Assembly: GCA_965207075.1 (NCBI GenBank) | Contig: CBDBLO010000002.1 | Coordinates: 1,216,001 to 1,280,000, forward strand | From: Nitrosopumilus sp. | GTDB lineage: Archaea; Thermoproteota; Nitrososphaeria; Nitrososphaerales; Nitrosopumilaceae | Reading direction: 5' to 3' | DNA length: 64,000 bases | The notes under the pieces: model-generated | Seen by the model: only the letters and a program-made list of their open reading frames with translations | Told to the model about the DNA's origin: nothing | Databases searched by the model: none | Made by a program: the position numbers and the translations under genes | Shown: in pieces, positions 1 through 20,886 of the stretch | Numbering within the stretch: the stretch's first letter is position 1 | Layout of the letters: the number at the start of each line of letters is the position of its first letter

Positions 1-125
1 AACACTGTGCGGGTGAACTCGGCTCCCAGCCGGGCTTCAAGGTATGATCCCATATACCTGAGCCCTGGCGGGTACATCTTGTGATGGGACATCTTGTAGC
101 TGTCGGTGTTGAGTATGGCGTTCAT
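1..125 (-). CDS. nadV: Nicotinamide phosphoribosyltransferase (NAMPT/NadV family), 5' part only
   Basis: Hand translation MNAILNTDSYKMSHHKMYPPGLRYMGSYLEAR matches NAMPT N-terminal TDSYKxxHxxxYP...SYxExR signature; runs off window; not in ORF track. Confidence 0.85.
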   Translation of the reverse strand, partial: MNAILNTDSYKMSHHKMYPPGLRYMGSYLEARLGAEFTRTV

Positions 126-193
126 TTTTGGTCGTTCCCCCACCGCTGCGGCTTCACGGTATCGTATCGCGGCATGCCGATAAAAGGCAAAGG

Positions 194-268
194 CGAACCC
201 GGCAGGACTCGAACCTGCGATCTGGCGCTCCGCGGGCGCCCGCACTCTCCGGGCTGTGCTACGGGTCC
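194..268 (-). tRNA. tRNA-Arg(GCG) with atypical C33
   Basis: Cloverleaf GGACCCG/CGGGTTC, GCAC/GTGC, GGCGC-CCGCGGA-GCGCC, GCAGG-TTCGAGT-CCTGC. Confidence 0.88.
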
Positions 269-269
269 A

Positions 270-1325
270 TCATGAATATTCAGTTCCACCACCCCTGACC
301 AAATATTTCGGGCTCACGCTCTTGAGCATCACCCGTCCCTGCATGTCCGACCGCTCCGGCACGGGCCGCACTACCACGCCCTCGCGTACGTGGTCCGCCC
401 CCGGTACGAGCGACGGGCCGGACGTATGTTCTTCCAGCGCCTCCAGTGAGAACGGGCCCTTGTAGGCCAACGGGGCATGTCTCAGCCTCAGGCCGCCTCG
501 GACCAGGTCTATGTCCGACTGCGTGACGTACGTGCCGTCGGACAGCATGACGTCAAAGACGGCCATGTCAAGATCAGTCCCGTAGTGCAGGTCCTGCACA
601 TCGCGGCCGTAGATCTCGCAGAACACGTGGACCGGCCCGTCGTCACCGTCCTTGCCGCGTGTTGCGCGCAGATCCTTGGTAATCGCGTACAGGTCGTGCG
701 CGTACCGTCCGGCCATCCGCGTGTAGATGTTGTCCACGCCGTCGGCAAACACGAGCTGGGATGCGGCCCACCCCTTGCTGGACACCGCTATGGAGTCGTA
801 CGGCCTGACCGCGCAGTAGCACAGCACGCCGTGCACCTTCTCGTGCATCGTGACGGGCTCGCCCTCCTGCAGCCTGCCGGGGTGGTTCTTGATGTTCTCA
901 ACGTCGTATGACGCGAGTTTGTCATTGCCGCCGTACCGCACGACCTTGCCCCTCATGTCCGTGGGTATGACCGGCTCGTACTTTGTCACTCCGAGCAGCT
1001 CCGTGCAGTCGGCCCCCTCCTTCCATTTCCACCCGTCGAGTTGTTTGCCGCTGTATATCAGCCCCTGGGAGAGCACGCCGCGCAGCCGCTGGGCGCTCAC
1101 GCGGTTGTGCTTCTTCCCGCCCAGCTTGCCGACCAGCCCCATCTCCTCCAGTATCGATTTGGGGACGATCGCCTGCTCCGGTATGTACGCGGCCAGGTCG
1201 CCCGTCTTGTACATGCCCTTGGGCACGACGCACTTGTACCCCATCACCACGGCAATCTCCAGCCTGTCGGCCTCGGGGTGCTTCTCGACCTGCAGCCTAT
1301 GCATCTCTACTGCAAAGCTGGCCAT
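270..1325 (-). CDS. RNA ligase, DRB0094 family (N-terminal tRNA-binding/OB-like domain + Rnl2-type nucleotidyltransferase)
   Basis: HPEADRLE...VVPKG..YIPE..RLRGVLSQGL N-domain; EKVHG motif I, EIYG, FDV, REGVVV, LKSVSPKYL. Confidence 0.9.
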   Translation of the reverse strand: MASFAVEMHRLQVEKHPEADRLEIAVVMGYKCVVPKGMYKTGDLAAYIPEQAIVPKSILEEMGLVGKLGGKKHNRVSAQRLRGVLSQGLIYSGKQLDGWKWKEGADCTELLGVTKYEPVIPTDMRGKVVRYGGNDKLASYDVENIKNHPGRLQEGEPVTMHEKVHGVLCYCAVRPYDSIAVSSKGWAASQLVFADGVDNIYTRMAGRYAHDLYAITKDLRATRGKDGDDGPVHVFCEIYGRDVQDLHYGTDLDMAVFDVMLSDGTYVTQSDIDLVRGGLRLRHAPLAYKGPFSLEALEEHTSGPSLVPGADHVREGVVVRPVPERSDMQGRVMLKSVSPKYLVRGGGTEYS

Positions 1326-1441
1326 CAGCTACCCGCCCCACCCACGGGTCCGAAATACGCGACGTAAAGCATGAACAACGCAAAGGCCACGAACATAACT
1401 ATGCATGCAACCGACAAGTTTGACCTCCCGCGGGCGGCCAT
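1325..1441 (-). CDS. 38-aa single-TM protein
   Basis: MAARGRSNLSVACIVMFVAFALFMLYVAYFGPVGGAGS; TAATG and TGATG overlaps on both sides. Confidence 0.55.
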   Translation of the reverse strand: MAARGRSNLSVACIVMFVAFALFMLYVAYFGPVGGAGS

Positions 1442-1584
1442 TACGGATTACCCCGAAACTCATCACAAGAGCAAGGCATGGTGACTCCCTCGCCGCAGTA
1501 TTCGGCCTTGATGGATACGGTGCACTCACCGCCGCCTATCTTATGATACTCGTAGCCGTGGCCGCAGTCGCAGAGCGGGGACAT
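1441..1584 (-). CDS. 47-aa Zn-finger microprotein (CxCGHxxxxH...CxCxxF)
   Basis: MSPLCDCGHGYEYHK...PCSCDEF; coupled by TAATG. Confidence 0.65.
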   Translation of the reverse strand: MSPLCDCGHGYEYHKIGGGECTVSIKAEYCGEGVTMPCSCDEFRGNP

Positions 1585-1740
1585 TAGGTTGGCACCTCCG
1601 CGCTTATTGGTGCCTCCCCGACTGGTTCAAAAAACGACGCCGGGTTGGGTTCGTCCTCCACCAGCAGTATGAGTACCATCAGCCCACCCACTCCTCTGCC
1701 GAACCGTATTTTCCCATAACATCACCAATATTATCATATC

Positions 1741-1763
1741 ATTTATAAATGTTAGGTTATTAT
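1741..1763 (-). promoter_or_regulatory. Archaeal promoter (TATA box TTTATAAA) identical to 17952-17974
   Basis: ATTTATAAATGTTAGGTTATTAT, AT-rich island ~25 nt upstream of an ATG on minus strand. Confidence 0.75.
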
Positions 1764-1880
1764 GCCCTGCGGTATTTCCAGCATACCCACGGGGCGGCGG
1801 TCTCGCTCATTGCACACACACAACGCGTTTGTACATAAGGCGCCGGCCTCCAGCGGACAGGCAGAATGACGCGTGTATGG

Positions 1881-2096
1881 TCATGGCGCGGACTTCTGCG
1901 GCCTTCGTATGATCCGCAGCCGCACGGCGCATTCCTCGCAGTAGATGTACTTTCGGATGCCCGGCCTAGAGTTCTTGCTCACCACGGCGGTCCCCGGAAA
2001 GCACTCCGCGCCGCACTGGCGGCAGTCCGTATGGTGTCCGAGACGGCGCCTGTTGCTGTACTTGGCCGTGTCCATGACAAAGCGCTTGGCGGGCAT
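1881..2096 (-). CDS. Zn-finger protein, CxxC...VS...CxECAVRL family
   Basis: CRQC...VVSK...YCEECAVRL; TGATG coupling. Confidence 0.7.
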   Translation of the reverse strand: MPAKRFVMDTAKYSNRRRLGHHTDCRQCGAECFPGTAVVSKNSRPGIRKYIYCEECAVRLRIIRRPQKSAP

Positions 2097-2347
2097 CAGG
2101 CGGCCGTCACCTCTGAAAGTTCGCACACGCCGAGCCGGACGGCGCACTCGGCGCAGTATCGCTTGCCGTTCAGGCGCCGGGGCTTGGAGACGGCGACGTC
2201 CCCGGGCGCGAACTCGCGGCGGCAGTTGCCGCATCCCGTATAGGGGGTGCGGCGTCCCGAGGCGTGCCCGCGCCTAGCGTCCGTCGCCTGCTGCCTGCGC
2301 CGGCGGCCGTCCTGCTGGTCCAGCCACTTCTGGCTGACGTGTATCAC
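2096..2347 (-). CDS. Zn-finger protein, CAVRL family
   Basis: PYTGCGNC..FAPGDVAVSK..YCAECAVRLG; GTGA overlap start. Confidence 0.7.
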   Translation of the reverse strand: MIHVSQKWLDQQDGRRRRQQATDARRGHASGRRTPYTGCGNCRREFAPGDVAVSKPRRLNGKRYCAECAVRLGVCELSEVTAA

Positions 2348-2625
2348 CGTGACCGGAGCCACGCGTCCACCTCCGAAGCGGTGCATATTCCAAGCCTCAC
2401 GGCGCATTCCACGCACCAGTGTTTGCGGTGCTTGCCGCTCGGCCTGCTCACGGCCAGGCTTCCCACGGACAGTTCCGTCCTGCATTCGCAGCACGCGGTA
2501 TACGGCGACTTGCGCCCGGCCGAGCGACTGCTCCGCATGGTGGCGTGGGCCTTGAGTTCCTTGTCCTGCAGGGTGCGCTGGTATGTCAGCCACCGGCGTT
2601 CTATGCGCATTATGAATGCCGGCAT
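2344..2625 (-). CDS. Zn-finger protein, CAVRL family
   Basis: PYTACCEC..VSR..WCVECAVRLGIC. Confidence 0.7.
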   Translation of the reverse strand: MPAFIMRIERRWLTYQRTLQDKELKAHATMRSSRSAGRKSPYTACCECRTELSVGSLAVSRPSGKHRKHWCVECAVRLGICTASEVDAWLRSR

Positions 2626-2894
2626 CAGGGGGGAGCCCCCTGCCTCGCCGCGTCCACAATGCGGCGGACCTCCTGCATGCTTTCCACGCGCCGCATGGAG
2701 AACGCGCCGGCGCGGTGCGGCTCGTAGAACGCGTGCTCGACGGCCGCCATCAGGGGCGTCCAGATGCCGGGAACCTGGACCGCCCTGTTGCGCGGCATCC
2801 CGGCGCAGCACTCCACGCAGTAGTAACGCTCGCCGGCTCCGTCGTAGTTGAGGACAAGCATGGTTATCGCGCCGGCGGCGTGGACGTCGCTCAT
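2625..2894 (-). CDS. CxxC...HAxxxPH putative Zn-binding protein
   Basis: YYCVEC...VEHAFYEPH; homologous to both halves of 8998-9630. Confidence 0.65.
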   Translation of the reverse strand: MSDVHAAGAITMLVLNYDGAGERYYCVECCAGMPRNRAVQVPGIWTPLMAAVEHAFYEPHRAGAFSMRRVESMQEVRRIVDAARQGAPP

Positions 2895-2895
2895 C

Positions 2896-3036
2896 TTACG
2901 CCGCCTCCCTGTACGTGCGGCACCCGCAGGAGGGGCAGCCGCCGGGCGCCACGCACGACCCGCGGCACGGGCACCGCAGGCACTTCCGCTCGCCCATGTA
3001 GTGGTCGTCCCTGGGGCAGCCGCACATGCAGGGCAT
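2896..3036 (-). CDS. 46-aa Cys-rich microprotein
   Basis: MPCMCGCPRDDHYMGERKCLRCPC...CPSCGCRTY. Confidence 0.6.
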   Translation of the reverse strand: MPCMCGCPRDDHYMGERKCLRCPCRGSCVAPGGCPSCGCRTYREAA

Positions 3037-3037
3037 G

Positions 3038-3424
3038 TCAGCACCCCTCCTCCCCCGGGCGGTGGGCCAGCGTGTCCACGTTGCGGATGATCGGGTTCCC
3101 AACACCGCGCTTCCCCAGTTCCTCCCGCGCTATATCGCATGACTCTGGAAGTATCTCCATGTGCTCGATGCGGGCCGCCGTCTCGGGCGTGATGATCCCG
3201 GCGTCCATGCCGCGCGTGGTGAAGTTGGCCTCGCCCGCGAACGGGTCGATGATGTGGACGCGCTCCCCGTTGAGGCCATCGGCAACGCCGAACTCGGTCT
3301 TCAGGATGTGGTCTACGGAGTTCTCGATAAAGTCGATGAGCTCGGGCGGGGTGAACACCTGCACCTTTTTCTTGTCTTGGCGGGCCTTTGCGACGTCCTC
3401 GTCCGTGAGGGGCTTGTCCGTCAT
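3038..3424 (-). CDS. Truncated adenine-MTase-like protein (SAM-binding half, Type ISP R-M-like), no NPPY motif
   Basis: VFTPPELIDFIENSVDHILKTEFG..GL...VHIIDPFAG resembles Type ISP MTase motifs X and I; ends before motif IV. Confidence 0.7.
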   Translation of the reverse strand: MTDKPLTDEDVAKARQDKKKVQVFTPPELIDFIENSVDHILKTEFGVADGLNGERVHIIDPFAGEANFTTRGMDAGIITPETAARIEHMEILPESCDIAREELGKRGVGNPIIRNVDTLAHRPGEEGC

Positions 3425-4002
3425 GTCAACACCTGCTGCCCTGCACCCCGGTTCTTCTGGGCGATCTCCTCCAGTATCTTTGTCCGCTTGGCCTCTATTA
3501 GCTCGCGTTCATGCTTGATTGCGTTATTGGTCATGCCCATGCGCGGCTCCCCCATGGCGGCGCTGCGGCGTTCGATTGCAGTCTTCTCGGCGTGGCATGG
3601 CTTGCACATCAGTTGCAGGCGTTCCTTGGCAAGGTCGGGGTTGCGTAGGTAGTACCTCACTATCGAATTAGAGTTTCCGATGGCCTTGCGGTCTACGGAG
3701 CCGTCCGACCTGATGTGGTCTAAATGTAGGTTGGACGTGACATGGCACACGACGCAGGAGCCGCCGAGCAGCTTGAGGATGTCGCGGCGCATGGCATAGT
3801 ACATCTTGCTCTTTGAATCCGCGTCGCATTTCTTGCACCACGTCTTAAGCCCGTGCGAGTTGACCTTGCTCTTGCTGAAGTGGTCGTAGGACAGGGTCAG
3901 CCCGCACTTCTTGCAGATGCGCATCTTGTTCTTGTCCAAAAGCTGCCTTTGGCGGCGCTTTAGATCCAGACTGCGAATTGCAATCTCGTCAAGCTCGCTC
4001 AT
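3421..4002 (-). CDS. HNH endonuclease with N-terminal Zn finger
   Basis: CKKC..F...GLKTWCKKC; LGGSCVVC..LHLDHI..DG...LQLMCKPCHAEKT. Confidence 0.82.
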   Translation of the reverse strand: MSELDEIAIRSLDLKRRQRQLLDKNKMRICKKCGLTLSYDHFSKSKVNSHGLKTWCKKCDADSKSKMYYAMRRDILKLLGGSCVVCHVTSNLHLDHIRSDGSVDRKAIGNSNSIVRYYLRNPDLAKERLQLMCKPCHAEKTAIERRSAAMGEPRMGMTNNAIKHERELIEAKRTKILEEIAQKNRGAGQQVLT

Positions 4003-4523
4003 TTGGCGGCCTCCTGTTTTCTGCGTCGCATGATTGTAAGCCTTGCCCATCGACAGTCGTTGCACAGTATTTTGAGGTGCTTGACGGCCTGCTCCGGGCG
4101 CTTGAGATAGTACGCGTACCGCATCGAGGGGAACGTTGGAACGTCGGGGTTGTGTACGACCTGCGTGACATAGGCGCGACTGCTGTCTTTTATGGCGGTC
4201 TTGCAGATGTGGCATGTCGTGCCGCCTAACAGCGACAGGATTCCGGCGCGTACGCTGGAGTTGTGCCTGTGGGATTCCGCGCTGTGGCATTTCCGGCAGA
4301 TGTGCTGCAGCCCGTCTGCCGTGCGGCAGTGGCGCGCGAACTTCTCGCGGGGCAGTGGCTTTCTGCATCTAAAGCACATCTTCAGGTTGTTGGCGGCGGC
4401 CTGCCTCTTGATCAGTGTGGCCAGCTTTACCTGCAGTTCTAGTTCCCGCTGATTGATCGCGTCAAGTTCCTCCTGCGTGGTGATGTATCCGGGAGTCGGC
4501 TTTTTCTCACGGTTGGTGTGCAT
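3999..4523 (-). CDS. Degenerate HNH paralog of 3421-4002
   Basis: Same architecture (CFRC..DGLQHICRKC; LLGGTTCHIC; YYLKRPE..LKILCNDC) without DH and final His. Confidence 0.7.
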   Translation of the reverse strand: MHTNREKKPTPGYITTQEELDAINQRELELQVKLATLIKRQAAANNLKMCFRCRKPLPREKFARHCRTADGLQHICRKCHSAESHRHNSSVRAGILSLLGGTTCHICKTAIKDSSRAYVTQVVHNPDVPTFPSMRYAYYLKRPEQAVKHLKILCNDCRWARLTIMRRRKQEAAK

Positions 4524-4894
4524 TACGACATGTCCCTCCTCGGCTGGTATGACATGCATCCGCAGGACGACACCATGCAACGGCGCGTGCGCTCCATCGG
4601 CTTTGTCTGCTCGTGGGCGTCGGACGGGTGGCGGCACCCGCGGCATGTCGAGTCGTTGGCCGCCACGTTGCGGATTGCCTGCGCGCGTCTCTGCATTTTT
4701 TCGGCGATGTACATGGCTTTGCAGTCGCATATCATGCAGCCCTTTTGGTGGGAGGTTGCGGGGTGGCCGCACCCGTCGCATGTGACGCGTTCTGCCGCAG
4801 AAGGTATGGCGCGCTGGCGGTACTTTACGCGCTTCCTCATGCCTATGGCATTGAGGTGTCCTGTCTTCGGGTGGACGTCAGACCAGCGGGGCAT
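4523..4894 (-). CDS. Protein with two CxxCxHxxxxH...CxC fingers
   Basis: CDGCGHPATSH..CDC and CRGCRHPSDAH..CGC. Confidence 0.7.
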   Translation of the reverse strand: MPRWSDVHPKTGHLNAIGMRKRVKYRQRAIPSAAERVTCDGCGHPATSHQKGCMICDCKAMYIAEKMQRRAQAIRNVAANDSTCRGCRHPSDAHEQTKPMERTRRCMVSSCGCMSYQPRRDMS

Positions 4895-5085
4895 TATCCT
4901 GTTGACACCTCCGGCATCCTGACCGGTCCCTGCCTTTTTTGAGCCTCCCACAGCAGGCACGTGCATATGACAAAGTCGCCCGCCTCGTTGGTGTCTATGT
5001 GGGTGCACCGCGGGCCTGCCTTGCCGAAATGCAAATGGATGCGTTCAAGGTGGCCGCAGCCGCGGCAGAACTTTTCGTCGATCAG
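4894..5085 (-). CDS. CxxCxHxxxxH...CxC microprotein, probable near-cognate (CTG) start
   Basis: CRGCGHLERIH...CTCLLW; CTGA overlap with upstream stop. Confidence 0.6.
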   Translation of the reverse strand: MIDEKFCRGCGHLERIHLHFGKAGPRCTHIDTNEAGDFVICTCLLWEAQKRQGPVRMPEVSTG

Positions 5086-5567
5086 CCGGATCCTCCCCCC
5101 CGCTGCATGTGCTGCTCGAGCATCCCCCTGTACTCCCACGCCTTCTCCTGCATGGCACCGGGCCACGGCCAGTTGCCGCCGTCTGCTATGAGCTCAAGCG
5201 AGCCGCACTTTACGGAGCCGTCGGGCTGCCTGCCGAACGGCATCAGGCGGATGTCCAGCAGGTCGGCGTCCTTGCACCGTTCGCGGGCGGCCTTTACGGC
5301 GTCCCCGTTGATGTCGGCGCCGTATATCTCGACGCGTGCGGCGCCCCGGTCGCGGGCTTGGCGCATGCCCTCTGCCAGCAGTATGCCGGAGCCGCAGGCG
5401 GGATCGAATATGCGGACGCGCCTGCCCCTGTGGTCCTCGGCCCCAAACGTCATCCCCACGAGCAGCGTCGCCGCGGCGGAGGACGTATAGTAGGAGGCGG
5501 CCTCCTTGCGGTGCTCACTGTCACCGGTTTCGGGGTCGTACTTGACTGGCCTTTTTTCGTTTGTCAT
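5082..5567 (-). CDS. Truncated adenine-MTase-like protein (SAM-binding half), no NPPF/Y motif
   Basis: YYT (motif X), IFDPACGSGILL (motif I), IYGADIN (motif II), GSLELI; ends before motif IV. Confidence 0.75.
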   Translation of the reverse strand: MTNEKRPVKYDPETGDSEHRKEAASYYTSSAAATLLVGMTFGAEDHRGRRVRIFDPACGSGILLAEGMRQARDRGAARVEIYGADINGDAVKAARERCKDADLLDIRLMPFGRQPDGSVKCGSLELIADGGNWPWPGAMQEKAWEYRGMLEQHMQRGGGSG

Positions 5568-5821
5568 TTCTTCACACGCCTCCGGGTGTCATTCCGGCTG
5601 CCCGACCGGGCGTAGCGGCCCTGGTGGTCGGTGCGCGGCATGACTGCCTGCGCGGTCTGGGTGGGCATCTGCGACGCGTCCTCCCCGGGCATGTCCATCG
5701 GGCGGCCGCACTCGACGCACTCCATGTTGGACGTCCAGCCCGTGCCGCCGTCGCCGGTGTCGCCGAACGTCTCGTAGTATACGGTGCCGCCGCACTTGGG
5801 GCACACTGGGGGCTTGGTCAA
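5564..5821 (-). CDS. Zn-ribbon protein
   Basis: CPKCGG...CVECG. Confidence 0.65.
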   Translation of the reverse strand: MTKPPVCPKCGGTVYYETFGDTGDGGTGWTSNMECVECGRPMDMPGEDASQMPTQTAQAVMPRTDHQGRYARSGSRNDTRRRVKK

Positions 5822-6024
5822 CCCGCGGCCTCCTTCAGCATTTGCGACACGCTCTTGTGGTACGTGCGTATCCTGAGCTGCTTGCCGCAGCAGGGGCAGT
5901 GCCTGCCATCCCAGTCAGTCTGCATGTCACATGGGCGGCAAACCTTGGTTGCGCCGCGCCTGCGCTGGCCTCCTTCCATCAGCGTGCCGAGCGAGTATCT
6001 GTCGCATTTGCCGCGGCATGCCAT
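5818..6024 (-). CDS. Small Zn-finger protein (CxGxC...CxxC..WDG.xCPCCGxxLR)
   Basis: MACRGKC...CRPC..WDGRHCPCCGKQLR; pattern familiar from thaumarchaeal small proteins. Confidence 0.7.
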   Translation of the reverse strand: MACRGKCDRYSLGTLMEGGQRRRGATKVCRPCDMQTDWDGRHCPCCGKQLRIRTYHKSVSQMLKEAAG

Positions 6025-6683
6025 CAGTCCCGCACCAACCTGTTCTTGCGCGCGTGTCTGTTGTTGCCGACCGTCCCCCTTGCGCGGCGGGCGGCTATTG
6101 CGCGGTGTCCCATGCCGGTTGACGGCGCGGCGGCGTCGCAGCCCGTGCGGCGGCACGTTCCAAGGAGGCGGTAACATCTTTGGCAGTACGACCCCGGTTC
6201 CTGCTCCGCGCGGCGGCGCATCTCGGCCACTCCGCCGTCGCTGACCCCAAGGCCGCGGGCGGTGCGCCGCGATACTGTGCGCTGCGACCTGACCTTGCCT
6301 ACGGTGACATGCTCGCGGGCGGCATGCACCTGCAACCGCTCCCTTGTTTGTTCGTCCTCGGGACGGGCGGAGTATATCTCGCAGGCCAGGTGCTCGGGGG
6401 CCACGCACGTGGTGTTGCGGCACGATCTCGTTATGGTGGCGCCGGCGGGGGGCGCGTGTCCGCGCCACGCCCTGAACAAGTGCGGCAGTATGCCGACGCG
6501 CTTGCCGCCGATCTTGGCCTCCGGCTGTCCCTTCTTGGACTTGCCCGTCCAGGGGCGGCAGCCGTTCTTGTCGGCCGCGCCAATCGCTCCGCGCCGCAGC
6601 ATGTCGCACGCCCGTTCGCGTACAGCGGCGGTCGCGGGATCACCGGCGGCCTCGGCCAGCCTGCCGTAGGTCAGGGGTGGCAC
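6024..6683 (-). CDS. Degenerate HNH_3-like homing endonuclease domain protein
   Basis: GCRPWTG...TRSCRNTTCVAPEHL versus canonical CWxWxG...HxCxNxxCVNPxHL. Confidence 0.65.
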   Translation of the reverse strand: MPPLTYGRLAEAAGDPATAAVRERACDMLRRGAIGAADKNGCRPWTGKSKKGQPEAKIGGKRVGILPHLFRAWRGHAPPAGATITRSCRNTTCVAPEHLACEIYSARPEDEQTRERLQVHAAREHVTVGKVRSQRTVSRRTARGLGVSDGGVAEMRRRAEQEPGSYCQRCYRLLGTCRRTGCDAAAPSTGMGHRAIAARRARGTVGNNRHARKNRLVRD

Positions 6684-6747
6684 CCCCCGCCGTCAGGGCC
6701 GTGGACGCCGGCGCCATGGCCGCAGCCGGCGTACGCAGAGTCCCGAC

Positions 6748-7080
6748 TCACTGTGGTGCGGCCTCCTCTACTGCGTTCCCGTATACCGCGCGGGACTTGC
6801 GCGTCGCAAGCACCGCGTCGATGTCGGCCTGCGTGCAGATGCCCAGGCGGACGGCGCACGTGCCGCACCGGTACACGCGGTTCCTGCCCGACCGGCTCAC
6901 GTAGGTGTCGCCCAGTTCAAACTTGTGGCTGCAGTGGTTGCACGAGTCCCACGGGGCGGCGCGCACGTGCCCGCCGGTATGCGGCATGGTCTCGCGCTGC
7001 CTCTCGTGTTCGCGCTGCGTGGGTTGCTGCCGCGCAAGCCACAGCCTCGTGACGAGCCTGACCCGGAAGGAGGACGTCAT
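6748..7080 (-). CDS. Zn-finger protein, CAVRL family
   Basis: CNHC.HKFELGDTYVSR...CGTCAVRLGIC. Confidence 0.7.
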   Translation of the reverse strand: MTSSFRVRLVTRLWLARQQPTQREHERQRETMPHTGGHVRAAPWDSCNHCSHKFELGDTYVSRSGRNRVYRCGTCAVRLGICTQADIDAVLATRKSRAVYGNAVEEAAPQ

Positions 7081-7358
7081 GGGCCGGCCTCCGCAGTGGG
7101 GGTGTCGGGGACGGGCTCGATGTCCCTCCTGCGCGCGCCGCAATCAAGGCAGGCAAGGCCGCCAGCGCCGCTGTCGAGGTACCAGCGGTGCCCCCCGGGG
7201 CGTTGGCCGCAGGCCTCGACGGCCTTTTCGGTGGCGGTCTTCCAAGGGGGCGCCTCGGAGGGTGGAGGGGACTGCTCGCTGGCGGGCATGTGGCAGACGG
7301 TGCACACATCTTGGCCGAGCAGATCGCTGTACTGGTTTTTGTGTACTATGCACCTCAA
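7077..7358 (-). CDS. Cys/His-rich hypothetical protein
   Basis: CTVCH, HRW..CLDCG; coupled overlaps. Confidence 0.6.
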   Translation of the reverse strand: MRCIVHKNQYSDLLGQDVCTVCHMPASEQSPPPSEAPPWKTATEKAVEACGQRPGGHRWYLDSGAGGLACLDCGARRRDIEPVPDTPTAEAGP

Positions 7359-7756
7359 TGTCCGGACCTCCCGGCGGGACTGGAACCCTTGCCCTTACCG
7401 CGGCACCGCAGGCAGCACCCGCAGGGCCGGCTGACGCGCAGCACCCTGACGTACGGCCAGTGCCTCAGTGAAAGTTCCATTATCAGCGCGCGGTGCTCGG
7501 GCAGCCGCTCCGGGCAGTGCCTGCCCTCGTGGGCGGCGTGCCCGCAGAGGGAGCACGTCCTGCCGTTCCGCCCCGCCCCGCCCGGGCCGGTTTCTTCCGC
7601 CGTTCCGCCCTCTTGCGGCGGCGGGCTTATCCACCATCCGGGCTGCTCGGTGTCGGCCTCCGTCAGTATGTCGGTGCCGTCTGACGGGACGCCGTGCGGC
7701 GCGTCCGTTCCTCTTCTGCCGCGCCCCGCCGTCGCTGTGTCGTCGCTTTCTGCCAT
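7355..7756 (-). CDS. Hypothetical protein with C-terminal CxxCGHxxH...CxC
   Basis: CSLCGHAAH..PCGCCLRC. Confidence 0.55.
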   Translation of the reverse strand: MAESDDTATAGRGRRGTDAPHGVPSDGTDILTEADTEQPGWWISPPPQEGGTAEETGPGGAGRNGRTCSLCGHAAHEGRHCPERLPEHRALIMELSLRHWPYVRVLRVSRPCGCCLRCRGKGKGSSPAGRSGH

Positions 7757-7773
7757 CCGATTCACTCCTTTCC

Positions 7774-8226
7774 CTACCCGCGGTTCTCCCGTCCGTCCCC
7801 GCATCCCGCGACGTGAACACCGGCGGCCGCAGTAGGCGGTACCGGTTCCCCCAACGCCCGCGTCAGGGACTGGCGGCACAGCGCGAGTATGCGCAGGTCG
7901 TCGTCCTGCAGCCCCTCGTACCTTTCAAACGAGGACATGTCGTTTCTCGTCGCGCGTATTATCCTGGCCGCCGCATGCACGGTGTCGTCCTCCTCCGGCA
8001 TTTCCAGCATGCCGGCCGCCCGCCTGAGTGACTTGGTGTCGGCGTGCAGGTGGTCCAGCGCCGCGGCGTTCTCCAGTTTGAGCTGCGTGCGGTTGAGCAT
8101 GTGCTCCATGCGCTCGACGGCCCTGCGCACGGACTTGGCGGCGTCGAACCTGCCGGGCGGCGACAGCATGAGCCACCACGGGAGCCGCCTCGGCCTTCTT
8201 GGCAGGGGGACGTACACTTGCATCAT
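7774..8226 (-). CDS. Helical hypothetical protein
   Basis: ATGA coupling; amphipathic helical composition. Confidence 0.55.
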   Translation of the reverse strand: MMQVYVPLPRRPRRLPWWLMLSPPGRFDAAKSVRRAVERMEHMLNRTQLKLENAAALDHLHADTKSLRRAAGMLEMPEEDDTVHAAARIIRATRNDMSSFERYEGLQDDDLRILALCRQSLTRALGEPVPPTAAAGVHVAGCGDGRENRG

Positions 8227-8453
8227 CTCCTGTGGCCCGGGCCCGGGTCCGCAATCCCCGCCCCGACGCGGGCCAGTTTTTCCCTCGTGTACGCGTCGGC
8301 GACATGCTCCTCCATGGTGGCAAAGGAGTTGCCGGCGTACTGGCAGGCGCCGCATTTGTAGATGTGGGTGGATTCCAACCCGCATACGGTGATCAGTCCG
8401 TACAGGTCTTGCCCAGTCGACACGGGCGTGTAATGCGGGGACGGCCGGTCCAT
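8223..8453 (-). CDS. C2H2-like Zn-finger microprotein
   Basis: YKCGACQY...MEEHV. Confidence 0.6.
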   Translation of the reverse strand: MDRPSPHYTPVSTGQDLYGLITVCGLESTHIYKCGACQYAGNSFATMEEHVADAYTREKLARVGAGIADPGPGHRR

Positions 8454-8998
8454 CACGCGCCACCCTCCCCGGGCCCGCAGTTCTCCAAGTCCCACTCGCG
8501 GCCCTCGAACACCTCGTCGAGGGCGCGTATGTCGTCCTTCAGGCGTATGATGTGTGGGGGCATGTCGTCCACGCCGCATCTGGCGACCTGGGCGTGGCCC
8601 GTGCCCGCGCAGTTCTTGCGGGCGGATTCGGCAAAGTGCTCCACGTCGTCGAGCTTTTTGCGCATGCCGCTTACGGATGCAGTGATGCTGTCGCAGCGCT
8701 TCCCGACAATCTCATCCGGGTCCTCGACGGCCCTTGAACCGGGTCCGGCCGGGCCGTCAACCAGGACGGGCACCATGAACCGCACGCGGCTGAAGCCAGC
8801 GTTCAGGTCGCACTTGTCGCAGTCGCTGTCCCCCGGCGGGTCAGTGCACGTATCTGTGCTCTGCATCACCAGCATGTAGCCGCACCCGTTGCACCGGTAT
8901 GCGATGATCGTTTCCCGGCTGAAGCGCTCGCAGTACCAGCAGATGCCGCCCTCTTGTATAGACGCGGTGGGCAGCCCGCACCGCCTGCAGTCGGGCAT
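8453..8998 (-). CDS. Multi-CxxC protein with helical C-terminus
   Basis: CRRC..CWYC..CNGC..CDKC. Confidence 0.6.
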   Translation of the reverse strand: MPDCRRCGLPTASIQEGGICWYCERFSRETIIAYRCNGCGYMLVMQSTDTCTDPPGDSDCDKCDLNAGFSRVRFMVPVLVDGPAGPGSRAVEDPDEIVGKRCDSITASVSGMRKKLDDVEHFAESARKNCAGTGHAQVARCGVDDMPPHIIRLKDDIRALDEVFEGREWDLENCGPGEGGA

Positions 8999-9630
8999 CA
9001 CTTCCGCCTCCCGGTATCGGCTAGGGCACGCGCGAGGTCCGACAGCGAGTCCGGAAGGCATCCGCCGGGCGGCGTCCGCGGGCCGGGGGCCGGGGAGGAG
9101 GTAGGAGGGTCGTCCGGCGCGTTTGCGCGCCACATAGCATCCAGTACGTGACCGATGGCCGGAAAGCCGTCGGCCTTCTGGATGACCAGGACTTTGGCAT
9201 GGTGCGGGCTGCCGAGGGCGTGCTCCACCACCTCTTCCTCCTCGTACTGCTGGATGTAGTGGCTGCCGTCGGGGGGCGGGTCGTGGCCCAATATGCGGGC
9301 GTTCGCGCACTCCATGCAGTAGTGGTATTCGGTTTCCGTGTCGAGCATTATGAGGGTCTCCCTGCCGCCCACCGCCTCCCAGGCGCCCCCCTGCGACGCC
9401 AGGGCGGCCGCCGACCCGCCTGACACGGCGACGCCGCTGAACACCATGCTGAGCGCAGGGATGCGGTTCCGGCGGTGGAACACGACCGCGTCGGCGTTGT
9501 GCGGCTTTCCCAGCGCGTGGCTCGTCGCGTCGTAGACGCTGAGCGGCTCGCCGTCCGCGCATGCGGTGCAGAAAATATCGCACGTGCTGTCGTCGTACAG
9601 CATGAGCACGGTCTTGTATGGGGGGGCCAT
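8998..9630 (-). CDS. Protein with duplicated CxxC...HALGxPH domain
   Basis: FCTACA..SHALGKPH and YCMECA..EHALGSPH. Confidence 0.7.
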   Translation of the reverse strand: MAPPYKTVLMLYDDSTCDIFCTACADGEPLSVYDATSHALGKPHNADAVVFHRRNRIPALSMVFSGVAVSGGSAAALASQGGAWEAVGGRETLIMLDTETEYHYCMECANARILGHDPPPDGSHYIQQYEEEEVVEHALGSPHHAKVLVIQKADGFPAIGHVLDAMWRANAPDDPPTSSPAPGPRTPPGGCLPDSLSDLARALADTGRRK

Positions 9631-9980
9631 CAGTCGGTTCCACCTCCGGCTCCGGCGGCGTCCTCCCGGCAGTGGCAGGATCCGCCGTGCTTGCACACGA
9701 CGCCGCACGCCGCGCAGTACGTGTTGCCGTCGGCGTCGGTCTGCCAGTCGCACTCGTCGCACGGTATGGAAATCTCAACGGGCGGCAGGCAGTCGGACAG
9801 CCGCTCCAGGCTGCTGCGTATCTTTGACACGTGTTCCATGATGGCGCCCTTTTTGCGCGCCTCGTCGTACGACCCGCCGATCATGCCGCCGGCCAGCGAG
9901 TCTATGCCGTCAAGGTGGGCGTGCGCGATGTTGAGCTCGCGGTCGGTGCTTGTGGTGGTGGTGGTGCCGACGGCGCTCAA
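9630..9980 (-). CDS. Helical + Cys-rich protein
   Basis: TTGA start overlap; CDEC..CAAC..CHC. Confidence 0.55.
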   Translation of the reverse strand: MSAVGTTTTTSTDRELNIAHAHLDGIDSLAGGMIGGSYDEARKKGAIMEHVSKIRSSLERLSDCLPPVEISIPCDECDWQTDADGNTYCAACGVVCKHGGSCHCREDAAGAGGGTD

Positions 9981-10480
9981 AGTCTGGAAGCCTCCCTTTC
10001 CTCGTTTGTCAGGTCCCACCGCGGCCTGCCGCAGTCAGAGCAATAGTCGCCCTCGAAGCGATGGCCGCCGCGGCGTCTGCCGCACTCCGCCATGCTGCGG
10101 GATATGCGGTCGGCAGCCTCGAGGCGCCTGCGCATCTCGTCCACCGCGGCGTCCGTCTTGCCGGCGTCGCCGTCCGTGCCGGTTATCGCGCGCAGGCACT
10201 CCCGTATGGTGTCGGTCTGCTCGCCCACCAGGCGGGCCAGCGTCTTGCCGCTTGCGCGCGGGCCGTCGTCATTGTCGCCGCCGACCAGGTACTCGATGAC
10301 GCCGAGGCGGCGGTACGCCTCGGACGCCGACACGACCGTTTCGGCCATGCGCACGGACTCGGCGTTGGCGGCCGCGTCGGCGTCACTTCCGTGCGCCTCG
10401 TGCCCGCAGTGGCGGCACCTGTACGTGGGTATGTGCAGGGTCGCCGTATTGTCCGGGTGGCGCGCGTCCGTGTCGCTCAT
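9977..10480 (-). CDS. Zn-finger/helical protein
   Basis: CRHCGH...HRF..YCSDCG. Confidence 0.6.
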   Translation of the reverse strand: MSDTDARHPDNTATLHIPTYRCRHCGHEAHGSDADAAANAESVRMAETVVSASEAYRRLGVIEYLVGGDNDDGPRASGKTLARLVGEQTDTIRECLRAITGTDGDAGKTDAAVDEMRRRLEAADRISRSMAECGRRRGGHRFEGDYCSDCGRPRWDLTNEEREASRL

Positions 10481-19204: not shown

Positions 19205-19843
19205 TTAGGGGGCGTGCGGCGGCGTGCCGGCGGGCGGGGGATCCCCGTCCTGGGCGGTACTGGGCTGGCCGTGCTTGCGCGAGGCCGACGCTATTATTTC
19301 GCGCAGAGCCACGCCGTTCATGAGCTTGACGCCAGTGGAGGCGGCCAGGTCACGGGCGGCCTTTGTAAAGTCGTTGTTCGTGATGACCCACCCCTCGTCG
19401 GCGTTGTAGTGCTGGACGCCGGCGAACACCTGCTGGACCGCCTCGATGCCGACTGAAGATGAATAATGCTTGGCCTGGATGGCGATGCGCCTCCCCTTCT
19501 TACGCACGAGCACGTCCACCCCGTAGTCTCCGCTGGCCTGGGTGGCCTCCGACTCGTAGCCGAGGCGGGCGAACAGCGCCTCAAGGAATTTTTCAAAGGA
19601 TATGCCGTCCATGCTGTCTAGGTTCTGCACGCCCATCTCGACGAGCACCCGGGCCGCGCGGTTGCGCCGGCGCCGGCGCAGTATGAAGAAGGCGGCGAGT
19701 GACGGAACCAGTATGATTATGACGAGGAGAGCGAGTCCTGAGCTGACCTGCGTGTACGTAAACCAGAGGAGGAACAGCGCGAGCAGGACGGCGACGGCCT
19801 TGGACTTGCGCCTCTTCTTCCTCTTCTGCTCCCCTGACGCCAC
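19205..19843 (-). CDS. Membrane-anchored Mrr-type (Mrr_cat) restriction endonuclease
   Basis: Two N-terminal TMs; FE..L, GDYGVD, IQAKHY, AVQQV, ITN..FT..A. Confidence 0.88.
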   Translation of the reverse strand: MASGEQKRKKRRKSKAVAVLLALFLLWFTYTQVSSGLALLVIIILVPSLAAFFILRRRRRNRAARVLVEMGVQNLDSMDGISFEKFLEALFARLGYESEATQASGDYGVDVLVRKKGRRIAIQAKHYSSSVGIEAVQQVFAGVQHYNADEGWVITNNDFTKAARDLAASTGVKLMNGVALREIIASASRKHGQPSTAQDGDPPPAGTPPHAP

Positions 19844-19928
19844 GGGCCGTATGGGCTCGGCGGCTTTTAAGCCCGCGGCGGGGTCCTGAGCTGTCGTCGT
19901 TTTTATTGGACGGCGCCGTTATACGGCC

Positions 19929-20861: not shown

Positions 20862-20886
20862 AACACCACGCGTGTATACCAACAAG

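What the first reader, a model, noticed from the sequence alone, without database searches (positions are those of the whole stretch)
3038..5567. Two independent half-methyltransferases that keep only the SAM-binding motifs
Seen: 3038-3424 (Type ISP-like FTP..DFI..SV..DPFAG) and 5082-5567 (YYT..DPACGSG..GADIN) are unrelated to each other. Both stop just before the catalytic NPPY/F motif, and both have clean coupled starts and stops with no downstream remnant of the missing half. Established: Type I, ISP, IIG and BREX systems need SAM, and phage T3 SAM lyase blocks Type I restriction and BREX by acting on the SAM supply. Inference: domesticated SAM sponges or dominant-negative decoys of host R-M enzymes.
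Basis: partly seen in the sequence, partly recalled or inferred. Interest (0 to 1): 0.72.

Follow-up and report, generated by a model that had tools for sequence, protein, structure and literature searches.

The report
Stand-alone half-methyltransferase genes on a mobile element
Two small genes each encode only the cofactor-binding front half of a restriction-enzyme methyltransferase, and one belongs to a widespread, unnamed family of such half-proteins carried by phage-like DNA, so they are kept on purpose, probably to interfere with host restriction.

Summary
ORFs 3038-3424(-) (P1, 128 aa) and 5082-5567(-) (P2, 161 aa) look like real coding genes, with GC3 of 0.88 and 0.84. Both have ATGA-type overlaps with neighbours in a tight operon of small Cys-rich and HNH genes. 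Each holds motifs X, I, II and III of a gamma-class N6-adenine DNA methyltransferase and ends before motif IV.

No NPPY-like motif or C-terminal remnant lies in window 1-9000, and the genome holds no orphan C-half.

P1 derives from the Type ISP lineage (LlaGI/LlaBIII, E 5e-11). It is not debris. It has 14 close short homologues, and at least 23 further representatives of 50%-identity clusters (105-176 aa) end just after motif III. Residues matching SAM-contacting positions are conserved. One member sits in a phage contig. P2 derives from a roughly 900-980-aa Type IIG-like lineage and has only two short homologues.

The carrier is an accessory element with conjugation-type genes, extra tRNAs, NAMPT and an RNA ligase, not a recognisable tailed prophage.

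Function is untested. A counter-defence or restriction-alleviation role is the best guess (0.45). A pure SAM sponge is unlikely, because LlaGI cleaves without AdoMet.

The parts
3038..3424 (-). P1, 128 aa: stand-alone N-terminal half of a Type ISP-type gamma N6-adenine methyltransferase domain
   Evidence: ORF. GC3 0.88. PADLOC ISP/IIG profile E 2.7e-14. Family profile matches LlaGI/LlaBIII at E 5e-11. AF2 model pLDDT 86.5 with order b1-aA-b2-aB-b3. Foldseek top hits are LlaGI, LlaBIII and DrdV.
3302..3358 (-). P1 motif X helix (VFTPPELIDFIENSVDHIL, residues 23-41)
   Evidence: T25, P26 and F32 are invariant in 30 family members. The stretch aligns to LlaGI 702-720.
3221..3253 (-). P1 motif I (IIDPFAGEANF, residues 58-68). 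The second glycine of GxG is replaced (G-E-A).
   Evidence: P61 and G64 are invariant; D60 and F68 are nearly invariant. LlaGI has DPFTGTGTF at this place.
3149..3163 (-). P1 motif II (HMEIL, residues 88-92, strand b2 with E90)
   Evidence: E90 is nearly invariant. Strand 87-90 in the model. The motif name is assigned by position and recalled knowledge.
3068..3082 (-). P1 motif III (NVDTL, residues 115-119, strand b3 with D117). The protein ends 9 residues later.
   Evidence: D117 is nearly invariant. Strand 112-115 in the model. All 30 aligned members end 0-55 residues after this motif, most within 15.
5082..5567 (-). P2, 161 aa: stand-alone N-terminal half of a Type IIG-like gamma N6-adenine methyltransferase
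   Evidence: ORF. GC3 0.84. Pfam N6_Mtase positions 20-93 of 311, E 5.6e-7. 29% identity over 151 residues to the 982-aa gene at C2:1164602-1167547, whose NPPY lies 28 residues past the end of the alignment. AF2 core 30-110 is confident.
5460..5492 (-). P2 motif X (YYTSSAAATLL, residues 26-36)
   Evidence: Y27, T28, A32, A33, L35 and L36 are invariant in 6 aligned short and long relatives.
5376..5411 (-). P2 motif I (IFDPACGSGILL, residues 53-64)
   Evidence: D55, A57, C58, G59, G61 and L64 are invariant. The stretch aligns to M.BseCI motif I.
5307..5327 (-). P2 motif II (IYGADIN, residues 81-87)
   Evidence: G83 and D85 are invariant. Strand 78-85 in the model.
5187..5204 (-). P2 lineage signature GSLELI (residues 122-127), preceded by IRLMPFG. 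This is the last stretch alignable to long relatives.
   Evidence: I106, M109, P110, G112, G122, S123, L124 and L126 are invariant. In P0174 the NPPY lies about 45 residues further on.
3421..3999 (-). HNH endonuclease gene whose stop overlaps P1's start (ORF listed as 3421-4368; coding signal runs to about 3925-3999)
   Evidence: PHROG HNH families down to E 1.2e-13. The Zn-ribbon part matches the Lar-like phrog_5558 at E 7.4e-9. Frame plot. ATGA overlap.
3999..4490 (-). Zn-ribbon / endonuclease VII-like small gene (ORF listed as 3999-4781; the start is inferred)
   Evidence: PHROG hits phrog_6762 at 5e-6, Lar-like at 2.6e-4 and endonuclease VII at 4e-4. Frame plot.
5564..5821 (-). 85-aa Zn-ribbon ORF whose stop overlaps P2's start
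   Evidence: ORF. Only weak Zn-ribbon Pfam hits, all below cut-off. ATGA overlap.
2896..3036 (-). Cys-rich small ORF starting one base after P1's stop (46 aa from the ATG at 3036)
   Evidence: ORF 2896-3105. Junction sequence. Frame plot class 1 at 2875-3000.

Best explanation
SHOWN. P1 and P2 are real genes in a translationally coupled operon of small genes on an accessory mobile element. Each encodes only the front half of the Rossmann-like fold of a gamma-class N6-adenine DNA methyltransferase: motif X helix, strand 1 with motif I, helix, strand 2 with motif II, helix, strand 3 with motif III. Each then stops. They come from two different single-chain restriction-modification lineages. P1 comes from Type ISP. 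P2 comes from a roughly 900-980-aa Type IIG-like lineage. P1 belongs to an old, diverse family of 105-176-aa proteins with the same ends. That family evolves separately from, and faster than, the same segment of full-length enzymes.

INFERRED. They cannot methylate, because motifs IV-VIII and the DNA-recognition domain are missing. The conserved positions are the ones that hold S-adenosylmethionine in full-length enzymes, so the half-domain probably still binds SAM, SAH or a similar adenosyl ligand.

The most likely role is counter-defence for the element. Made early after entry, the half-domain would alleviate restriction by single-chain R-M enzymes of the class it derives from. I think it most likely acts at the protein level: it would stand in for the enzyme's own N-lobe at an interface that couples target recognition to the motor or nuclease. 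The adjacent or fused Zn-ribbon modules may help. Draining the cell's SAM seems less likely.
For: Real genes:
- Codon-position GC, frame plot and coupled junctions.

Half fold:
- AF2 model of P1 has pLDDT 86.5 and pTM 0.74, with order b1-aA-b2-aB-b3.
- Foldseek hits are LlaGI at 4e-5, LlaBIII and DrdV.
- The P2 core, residues 30-110, has the same order of elements.

Conserved short family:
- 14 homologues of 120-154 aa at 62-89% identity, among the 16 proteins with E <= 1e-3 of 22 candidates.
- The profile search of 1.84 billion representatives gave 856 hits at E <= 1e-3. Of the 150 listed, 23 proteins of 105-176 aa match through profile position 118 or beyond (my count). Long proteins of 800-1700 aa match only about positions 12-95.
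- In the 30-member alignment T25, P26, F32, P61 and G64 are invariant. E28, S36, F45, D60, F68, E90 and D117 are nearly so.
- On a quick tree, all 52 long segments can be separated from all 36 short ones by one change (support only 16). A 21-member short clade that includes P1 has support 99. Short branches are longer.

Carrier context:
- P0029 lies in a 17.4-kb contig beside endolysin (3e-28) and tail-fibre (1e-16) genes. It has its own AAGGAG site, and no NPP[YFW] occurs in 14.7 kb.
- Five close P1 relatives sit on contigs of 42.7-45.0 kb.

Linkage of the two halves:
- The P2 homologue P0018 and the P1-family member P0020 are each on an ENA contig of 25,247 bases, probably the same one.

Zn-ribbon link:
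- 3 of 30 members carry fused Cys-rich extensions.
- P0173 has an in-frame Cys-rich upstream part.
- P1 and P2 are flanked by Cys-rich ORFs, two of which match a Lar-like restriction-alleviation PHROG.

Neighbourhood:
- NAMPT, RNA ligase, an ArdC-N-like protein and extra tRNAs.
- The region is accessory: the RNA ligase was found in 0 of 40 other genus genomes.

Co-residence with long relatives:
- G000 alone, of 38 sampled genus genomes, holds a long ISP-type gene and the long IIG-like gene.

Literature:
- In Type ISP enzymes the MTase-TRD unit signals to the ATPase, possibly through the coupler domain (PMC7049714, passages read).
Against: - No functional test of any kind exists. SAM binding, partner binding and restriction alleviation are all inference.
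- In P1's clade motif I reads G-E-[AG] where ISP enzymes have G-T-G. This may weaken or change ligand binding.
- Type ISP enzymes are single polypeptides, so an intramolecular interface would be hard to out-compete in trans (reasoning).
- P1 is only 45% identical over 56 residues to the resident ISP-like gene. That is no closer than to ISP genes of other genera. The resident gene is itself in pieces.
- P2's family is tiny: two short homologues.
- No family member was found in 50,697 deposited phage records with 5 queries, in 72,556 plasmids with P1, or in IMG/VR contigs with 5 pattern scans.
- The charge is ordinary. Median pI is 5.08, against 5.13 for the same segment of long enzymes, so it is not a DNA mimic.
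- Neighbourhood evidence is guilt by association.
Confidence: 0.45

Rival explanations
1. They are regulators of co-travelling methyltransferase or R-M genes, not weapons against the host. The halves would bind or titrate the long enzymes of the same lineage present in this genome: the 982-aa IIG-like gene 50 kb upstream and the ISP-like gene at 431-434 kb. That could, for example, delay restriction while the element establishes itself in a new cell.
For: G000 is the only one of 38 sampled genus genomes with either long gene, and it has both long genes and both halves. The 982-aa gene lies in the same accessory stretch of the chromosome, next to a NucS-like PDC-S11 candidate defence gene. P2 shares lineage-specific signatures with it (IRLMPxG, GSL[ED]LI).
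Against: Identity is low: 29% for P2 and 45% over 56 residues for P1. The phage contig L075 carries a family member but no long methyltransferase in 14.7 kb. Kin genomes are not independent samples. No binding has been tested.
Confidence: 0.15
2. They are SAM sponges. The half-domains would soak up S-adenosylmethionine and starve SAM-dependent defences.
For: Positions that contact SAM in full-length enzymes are the conserved ones. Many family members keep a canonical DPFTGTG motif I. T3 SAM lyase shows that lowering SAM defeats Type I R-M and BREX (abstract of 10.1101/2023.02.27.530186, seen in the listing).
Against: LlaGI, the archetype of P1's parent class, cleaves completely without AdoMet (PMC2790903). 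A stoichiometric binder would have to match a metabolite present at about 0.1-0.4 mM (recalled figure, no call), unlike sponges for rare signalling nucleotides. P1's clade has an altered motif I. Searches for 'SAM sponge' plus phage found 0 papers.
Confidence: 0.08
3. They are the N-terminal subunit of a split, active methyltransferase whose C-terminal half (motifs IV-VIII plus recognition domain) is made from another gene and assembles in trans.
For: Two-polypeptide methyltransferases exist (recalled). HNH homing endonucleases, which can split genes, lie between P2 and P1.
Against: No NPPY-type motif or C-half similarity lies in window 1-9000. No orphan C-half lies anywhere in the 2.23-Mb genome: tblastn with four C-halves found only the two full-length loci themselves. 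None lies in the 14.7 kb around P0029. Both P1 and P2 are N-halves, so they cannot complement each other.
Confidence: 0.05
4. They are pseudogene debris: leftovers of broken R-M genes with no function.
For: Broken ISP fragments do occur. A 279-aa open frame in two IMG/VR contigs holds coupler plus N-half. The resident ISP-like gene is in pieces.
Against: The same short length is kept across at least 23 clusters below 50% identity. Starts and stops are coupled. The coding signature is strong. The model is confident and compact. The short forms do not nest among long ones on the tree.
Confidence: 0.02
5. They are a small ligand-binding or protein-binding module with a job unrelated to restriction, for example metabolic or transcriptional control of the element, reusing a half-Rossmann scaffold.
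For: No functional evidence ties the family to restriction. P1's clade has a changed motif I. Half-Rossmann modules bind many nucleotides: Foldseek also lists dehydrogenases for P2.
Against: The sequence tie to R-M methyltransferases is close and specific: motif X plus motif I, 45-58% identity over about 60 residues. Two independent lineages of the same kind of enzyme were cut at the same place and sit in one operon. The neighbourhood is rich in defence-related and counter-defence-related genes.
Confidence: 0.25

Closest known systems
Methyltransferase domain of Type ISP restriction-modification enzymes (LlaGI, LlaBIII; PDB 5ffj, 4xqk)
   Same: P1's family matches motif X and motif I at E 5e-11. 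With the broader profile, 52 long ISP-type proteins match model positions about 12-131 of 133. Best structural matches are LlaGI at E 4e-5 and LlaBIII.
   Different: P1 has no Mrr nuclease, helicase, coupler, motifs IV-VIII or recognition domain. It is 128 aa against about 1,400-1,600. In P1's clade motif I reads G-E-[AG] in place of G-T-G.
Type IIG/IIL single-chain enzymes (DrdV, PDB 7lo5; MmeI family) and gamma-class methylases such as M.BseCI (PDB 7qw5)
   Same: P2 aligns to M.BseCI residues 17-101 at E 3e-4. It also aligns to 892-982-aa relatives that carry NPPY. PADLOC MTase_II and IIG profiles match.
   Different: P2 stops 38 residues after GSLELI, with no motif IV or anything beyond it. 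The nuclease-like N-terminal part of the long relatives is absent. That part was seen only by eye as a PD...ExK-like string and was not tested.
Known anti-restriction proteins: Ocr/ArdA DNA mimics, T3 SAM lyase, Ral/Lar
   Same: The proposed role is the same: helping incoming DNA escape R-M. Two neighbouring ORFs match a Lar-like PHROG through their Zn-ribbon.
   Different: There is no sequence or fold likeness to these proteins: no Pfam or PHROG hit of that kind. The charge is not DNA-mimic-like. No enzymatic motif is present. What Ocr, ArdA and Ral do is taken from passages and from recall.
Catalytically dead methyltransferase-like partners in eukaryotes (DNMT3L, METTL14), recalled and not examined in any call
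   Same: The idea is the same: a methyltransferase-fold protein without catalysis that works by binding an active relative.
   Different: Those proteins keep a whole fold, and their partners are known. Here only half a fold is kept and no partner is known.
Short 'DNA methylase adenine-specific domain-containing' proteins of cultured phages (Klebsiella phage KpV477, 153 aa; Prochlorococcus phage P-SSM2, 132 aa) and short N6_Mtase clusters in the ESM Atlas
   Same: They have similar size and a weak fold match (E about 1e-2, probability 1.00). The nearest Atlas clusters to both P1 and P2 are proteins of 119-204 aa that carry N6_Mtase, and three of those clusters are labelled viral.
   Different: These are leads only. 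There is no alignment and no sequence match by tblastn. I know of no described function; none turned up in the searches.

Membership tests
Gamma-class N6-adenine DNA methyltransferase (Pfam N6_Mtase PF02384) | N-terminal motif X and SAM-binding motif I | tested here: met
   P2 has a Pfam hit over the cut-off, at profile positions 20-93. P1's family aligns with LlaGI motifs X and I.
Gamma-class N6-adenine DNA methyltransferase (Pfam N6_Mtase PF02384) | Catalytic motif IV, (N/D/S)PP(Y/F/W) | tested here: not met
   The motif is absent from both proteins and from all six frames of window 1-9000. The long relatives have NPPY or NPPF.
Gamma-class N6-adenine DNA methyltransferase (Pfam N6_Mtase PF02384) | Complete seven-stranded class I methyltransferase fold | tested here: not met
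   The models show only three strands: P1 near 57-60 (two DSSP strand residues, 59-60), E87-90 and E112-115; P2 E50-56, E78-85 and E103-108.
Gamma-class N6-adenine DNA methyltransferase (Pfam N6_Mtase PF02384) | SAM binding and methyl transfer to DNA | not testable with these tools
   This needs ITC or DSF and a methylation assay.
Type ISP restriction-modification enzyme | Single chain with Mrr nuclease, SF2 helicase, coupler, methyltransferase and Type_ISP_C recognition domain | tested here: not met
   P1 is 128 aa and matches only profile positions 878-949 of 1646. It has no Pfam hit to ISP_coupler or Type_ISP_C, which the resident 823-aa gene does have.
Split (two-polypeptide) methyltransferase | A partner gene encoding the missing C-terminal half | tested here: not met
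   None lies in window 1-9000, in the whole genome or around P0029.
DNA-mimic anti-restriction proteins (Ocr/ArdA type) | Strongly acidic surface that imitates DNA | tested here: not met
   P1 has pI 4.78 and net charge -10. P2 has pI 6.31 and net charge -1. The family median pI is 5.08, against 5.13 for the same segment of long ISP enzymes. The Ocr figures are recalled.
Conserved stand-alone half-methyltransferase family (proposed here) | Length 105-176 aa, motifs X, I, II and III present, and termination shortly after motif III, kept across distant members | tested here: met
   P1 shows this in the 30-member alignment and the representatives table. P2 belongs to a separate small family with the same design, 3 members.

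The most novel reading that the evidence does not exclude
Phages and other mobile elements carry a widespread, so far unnamed class of 'half-methyltransferase' counter-defence proteins. Each lineage would have been carved out of the SAM-binding lobe of the same class of single-chain restriction enzyme that it disables: Type ISP for P1 and Type IIG for P2. They would work as dominant-negative stand-ins together with small Zn-ribbon partners. This would be an anti-restriction principle different from DNA mimicry, SAM destruction or self-methylation.
Probability: 0.25. Interest if true: 0.8.

Novelty: new variant of a known kind. Interest (0 to 1): 0.6.

Why it matters
No inhibitor of Type ISP restriction enzymes turned up in the literature searches made here (a search for 'Type ISP' + anti-restriction + inhibitor listed only general R-M and BREX papers).

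If these half-domains alleviate restriction, they would be the first inhibitors of that class. They would also be a clean case of a defence enzyme's own domain being turned against it.

Even without that role, the family is a compact natural example of half a Rossmann-like methyltransferase fold surviving as an independent protein. That is of interest for protein folding and for engineering SAM-binding modules.

The family is missed by Pfam for P1 and has no PHROG for P1, so it goes unannotated in genomes.

Tried and rejected
- **Homodimer test.** Complex prediction with two copies of P1 (alignment A3) plus two SAM returned 'no answer', score 0.03 against a mark of 0.42. This is no evidence either way.
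- **Internal-deletion idea for P2.** MAFFT placed the tails of P2 and P0173 on the extreme C-terminus of the long relatives. Local alignment scores of the tails against the post-NPPY parts were reached by 36 to 435 of 500 shuffles. Rejected as chance.
- **DNA for dN/dS.** The close homologues are known only as ENA/Logan proteins.
  - Genome contigs gave 16 loci and JGI metagenomes gave 28 loci. All were partial matches at 28-58% identity, and I did not examine their ORF lengths.
  - Viral contigs with A1 gave none.
  - Viral contigs with A3 gave 9 loci: 7 in open frames of 1547-1651 aa and 2 identical ones in a 279-aa broken ISP fragment.
  - Single-protein scans with P0029, P0030 and P0023 gave nothing useful.
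- **Deposited phages.** Five queries found only two unverified Listeria records, and the one I opened holds a 1559-aa ORF. P2 found none. The first 12 kb of the window had no megablast match.
- **Plasmids.** 156 records matched, none covering 80% of P1. Those listed are annotated mostly as Type ISP enzymes.
- **Related genomes.**
  - Family level: 24 of 300 other genomes matched, in open frames of 502-1679 aa. The exception was one 120-aa frame that is probably cut by a contig end.
  - Genus level: none of the 37 genus genomes within that family sample matched.
  - Phylum level: 7 of 400 other genomes matched at E <= 1e-8, all in long frames.
- **Expression.** No RNA holder was listed for window 2800-5900. 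Laying four runs showed only contigs. These included a 10%-diverged P1 allele and a variant that skips 3862-4913, but too few listed differences for a dN/dS.
- **BFVD fold search.** No match at E <= 0.001. The P2 fold search in the PDB likewise gave no match at E <= 0.001; the best was M.BseCI at 1.5e-3.
- **Earlier findings of this scan.** Nothing to show.
- **Literature.** There were 0 papers for 'anti-restriction' + 'truncated methyltransferase' + phage, 0 for 'anti-defence' + 'methyltransferase fragment' and 0 for 'SAM sponge' + phage. Two preprints shared five broader terms, but the passages I read do not mention half-methyltransferases. Supplements were not opened.

Full report
**1. What is in the sequence**

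The two ORFs are at the stated places on the minus strand: P1 at 3038-3424 (128 aa) and P2 at 5082-5567 (161 aa).

- GC by codon position is 0.65/0.39/0.88 for P1 and 0.66/0.51/0.84 for P2. A sliding frame plot gives one unbroken coding phase over each.
- They lie in a run of tightly packed minus-strand genes.
- The stop of an HNH endonuclease gene overlaps P1's ATG in an ATGA (3421-3424).
- P1's TGA (3038-3040) is followed after one base by the ATG of a Cys-rich ORF.
- The stop of an 85-aa Zn-ribbon ORF overlaps P2's ATG in an ATGA (5564-5567).
- Between P2 and P1 lie two more Cys-rich ORFs, an endonuclease VII-like Zn-ribbon gene and the HNH gene.

**2. What the proteins are**

P2:
- It passes Pfam's N6_Mtase threshold (29.6 bits against a cut-off of 20.4, E 5.6e-7). 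Only residues 18-94 match, on profile positions 20-93 of 311.
- It aligns to M.BseCI residues 17-101 (E 3e-4).
- It aligns at 29% identity over 151 residues to a 982-aa gene of the same genome at C2:1164602-1167547. That gene's NPPY lies 28 residues beyond the end of the alignment.

P1:
- It has no Pfam or PHROG hit.
- It matches a PADLOC profile of Type ISP/IIG enzymes at E 2.7e-14, profile positions 878-949 of 1646.
- A profile of its 15-member family matches LlaGI and LlaBIII at E 5e-11 and 7e-11 over motif X and motif I.

Models:
- AlphaFold2 gives P1 a confident compact model (pLDDT 86.5, pTM 0.74). It has an N-terminal helix, the motif X helix, and then strand-helix-strand-helix-strand.
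- Foldseek ranks LlaGI (4e-5), LlaBIII and DrdV first for P1.
- P2's model is weaker overall (pLDDT 66.8, six sequences), but residues 30-110 are confident and show the same order of elements. Its best solved match is M.BseCI at 1.5e-3.

So each protein is the front half of a class I methyltransferase fold. It carries motifs X, I, II and III and ends before motif IV. I name motifs II and III by position and from recalled knowledge of M.TaqI-type enzymes, not from a call.

**3. Is the missing half anywhere?**

- No [NDS]PP[YFWH] occurs in any of the six frames of window 1-9000.
- tblastn with three full-length relatives of the same genome found only the N-half matches there.
- tblastn of four C-terminal halves against the whole 2.23-Mb genome found only the two full-length loci themselves.
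- P1 and P2 are both N-halves, so they cannot complement one another.
- They are only distantly alike (hhalign probability 31%, 53 columns). This fits two independent origins.

**4. Debris or kept genes?**

For P1 the answer is clear.

- A word-indexed search of 5.8 billion proteins found 16 proteins with E <= 1e-3 among 22 candidates. These are P1 itself, 14 others of 120-154 aa at 62-89% identity, and one 100-aa fragment.
- A profile search of 1.84 billion cluster representatives found 856 proteins at E <= 1e-3. Of the 150 listed, I count 23 of 105-176 aa that match through profile position 118 or beyond. Proteins of 800-1700 aa match only the first two thirds.
- I fetched 28 short ones and aligned 29 with P1. 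All begin 5-75 residues before motif X and end 0-55 residues after motif III, most within 15.
- T25, P26, F32, P61 and G64 are invariant. E28, S36, F45, D60, F68, E90 and D117 are nearly so. By position these are the residues that hold SAM in full-length enzymes (recalled).
- Many members keep the canonical DPFTGTG. P1's clade has DPFAGE[AG]xF.
The short proteins therefore correspond to one contiguous piece of the ISP methyltransferase domain.
- A quick maximum-likelihood tree of 36 short and 52 long segments has 132 columns and many unresolved forks, and the careful search did not finish. It can separate all long from all short with one change (support only 16). It gives support 99 to a 21-member short clade that includes P1, and it shows longer branches for the short forms. 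None of the short forms nests inside the long clade, apart from the unresolved, very long-branched P0041.
- This is the pattern of an old, separately evolving and fast-evolving family, not of recent breakage.

For P2 the evidence is thinner.
- One 151-aa homologue at 63% identity was found.
- A 353-aa ORF call has a last 170 residues that are 55% identical to P2 and end at the same place.
- All three share a G/N/D-W-P-W/F string near the end.
- Its long relatives (892, 897 and 982 aa) carry NPPY 28-45 residues past the shared GSLELI/L signature.

I could not obtain DNA of the close homologues, so no dN/dS was computed.

**5. Where such genes live**

The window lies in an accessory part of a 2.23-Mb, 60% GC chromosome.

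- The RNA ligase next to P1 was found in 0 of 40 other genomes of the genus.
- The region carries five tRNA genes that duplicate chromosomal ones.
- It also carries NAMPT, an RNA ligase, LigT, an ArdC-N-like protein, a PD-(D/E)XK exonuclease, ribonucleotide reductase, thymidylate kinase and two N6_N4 methylases.
- It has conjugation-type genes: T2SSE, T2SSF and an AAA_10/TraG-like ATPase. The ATPase has relatives in 9 of 40 genus genomes.
- The genome gave no hit to three phage hallmark families.

I therefore call the carrier a large mobile element of uncertain type rather than a prophage.

Elsewhere:
- The family member P0029 (139 aa, 32% identical to P1) was located in a MAG contig. There it closes a block of small unknown genes, has its own AAGGAG site, and faces an endolysin and tail-fibre block. 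No NPP[YFW] occurs in 14.7 kb.
- Five close P1 relatives sit on contigs of 42.7-45.0 kb, which is a phage-like size. This is inference.
- The P2 homologue P0018 and the P1-family member P0020 are each recorded on an ENA contig of 25,247 bases, most likely the same contig. If so, the two kinds of half travel together in a second element.
- The family was not found in 50,697 deposited phage records (5 queries), in 72,556 plasmids (1 query), or in 300 family and 400 phylum genomes. There, only long open frames matched.
- ESM Atlas and BFVD give leads to many clusters of 119-204-aa proteins labelled N6_Mtase, some viral. These are leads, not alignments.

**6. A recurring companion**

- Three of the 30 aligned members carry fused Cys-rich, Zn-finger-like extensions: P0020 and P0067 at the N-terminus and P0108 at the C-terminus.
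- The P0173 ORF call has an in-frame Cys-rich part upstream of the P2-like part.
- In the window both halves are flanked by Cys-rich small ORFs.
- Two nearby ORFs match a PHROG annotated as a Lar-like restriction alleviation protein through their Zn-ribbon (E 7.4e-9 and 2.6e-4).
- The 85-aa ORF upstream of P2 has only a sub-threshold Pfam Lar_restr_allev hit (E 0.072).

This is suggestive and no more.

**7. How it most likely works**

Shown: these are two independent, conserved, non-catalytic half-domains in a coupled operon on a mobile element.

Inferred: they bind an adenosyl ligand and serve counter-defence.

I prefer protein-level interference over SAM depletion, for three reasons.
- LlaGI, the archetype of P1's parent class, reaches complete cleavage without AdoMet, and its listed cleavage cofactors are ATP and Mg2+ (PMC2790903, passages).
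- A stoichiometric binder is a poor match for an abundant metabolite (recalled concentrations).
- In Type ISP enzymes the MTase-TRD unit is thought to signal to the ATPase, possibly through the coupler (PMC7049714, passages). That gives a surface which a free N-lobe could occupy.

Against this:
- An intramolecular interface is hard to out-compete in trans.
- P1 is no closer to the resident ISP-like gene than to others.
- That resident gene is itself in pieces.

One observation cuts both ways. G000 is the only one of 38 sampled genus genomes with a long ISP-type gene or the long IIG-like gene, and it has both long genes plus both halves. This fits counter-defence against resident enzymes, and it fits equally well a regulatory role for co-travelling enzymes. 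Kin are not independent, so I draw no statistics from it.

**8. Comparison with what is known**

- The halves are homologous to, but not members of, the gamma-class N6-adenine methyltransferases and the Type ISP and IIG enzymes. The catalytic motif, the complete fold and the other domains were tested and are absent.
- They do not resemble Ocr/ArdA: the charge is ordinary.
- They match no SAM lyase or other named anti-restriction family in Pfam or PHROGs.
- The nearest concept is the catalytically dead methyltransferase-like partner, such as DNMT3L or METTL14 (recalled). Those keep a whole fold.
- My literature searches found no description of stand-alone half-methyltransferases as anti-defence proteins. 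Subscription-only papers and supplements were not covered.

**9. Verdict**

Domestication: yes for P1, probable for P2. Decoy: plausible but untested. SAM sponge: unlikely for the ISP-derived half.
- Interest is 0.6. This is a real, widespread and unannotated family with a clear and cheap experimental path, but it has no functional evidence yet.

Noticed in passing
window 1881-2234, 2096-2659, 2344-2811, 6748-7143 (all minus strand): Four paralogous small ORFs end in a C-x2-C-A-V-R-L-G-[IV]-C string. One has a weak, sub-threshold DUF6510 hit. This is a repeated Zn-ribbon gene family within the same operon region.
   Followed up: no
window 192-268 and 40130-40200; G000:C2:1186525-1186747: The accessory region carries tRNA-Arg(gcg), tRNA-Met, and a His/Thr/Cys cluster. 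All duplicate tRNAs found elsewhere on the chromosome.
   Followed up: partly
window 1-1325 and upstream (G000:C2:1214731-1217325): A nicotinamide phosphoribosyltransferase (phrog_448, E 4e-149), the tRNA-Arg and an RNA ligase with a PHA02142 OB-fold sit side by side. This cluster is reminiscent of NAD-reconstitution and tRNA-repair counter-defence genes, which is a recalled concept.
   Followed up: partly
window 48268-49965, 54372-56486; G000:C2:756930-758759 and 1721256-1723100: The window holds a T2SSE ATPase and an AAA_10/TraG-like ATPase. The latter has two 69-70% identical paralogues elsewhere in the genome, each with one in-frame TGA. Relatives occur in 9 of 40 genus genomes. No phage terminase or HK97 capsid family hit was found anywhere in the genome.
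   Followed up: partly
G000:C2:430900-438700 (locus L064): The resident Type ISP-like locus is in pieces. An 823-aa coupler-MTase-TRD part and a 258-aa TRD tail match consecutive parts of one PADLOC profile. An IS5-family transposase and a 1101-aa HKD+Snf2 helicase lie upstream.
   Followed up: partly
G000:C2:1164602-1169191 (locus L063): The 982-aa IIG-like methyltransferase, which is P2's long relative, sits next to a 459-aa NucS-like protein that matches the PADLOC candidate system PDC-S11 (E 1.4e-35). This may be a two-gene defence system.
   Followed up: no
window 19205-25710: An Mrr_cat restriction endonuclease (E 1e-32) lies here. Three roughly 300-aa nucleotidyltransferase (NTP_transf_2/Polbeta) proteins, a class I methyltransferase and an ArsR-type regulator follow it.
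   Followed up: no
window 3862-4913 (run X3): A public run that holds the region at 99% also holds a variant contig that skips 3862-4913 (the HNH/endonuclease VII-like genes) and a 285-base, 10%-diverged allele of P1. The endonuclease cassette therefore varies between copies of the element.
   Followed up: no
G000:C2:712737-713009: ARAGORN reports four overlapping 93-base 'tRNA-???' calls at 60-base spacing. This is probably a tandem repeat rather than tRNA genes.
   Followed up: no
L071 and L072, positions 9530-10369 (IMG/VR contigs): Two viral-collection contigs share an identical 279-aa open frame that holds the end of an ISP coupler plus the N-half of the methyltransferase and stops after motif III. 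It looks like a broken ISP gene, and shows that real debris of this kind also exists.
   Followed up: no
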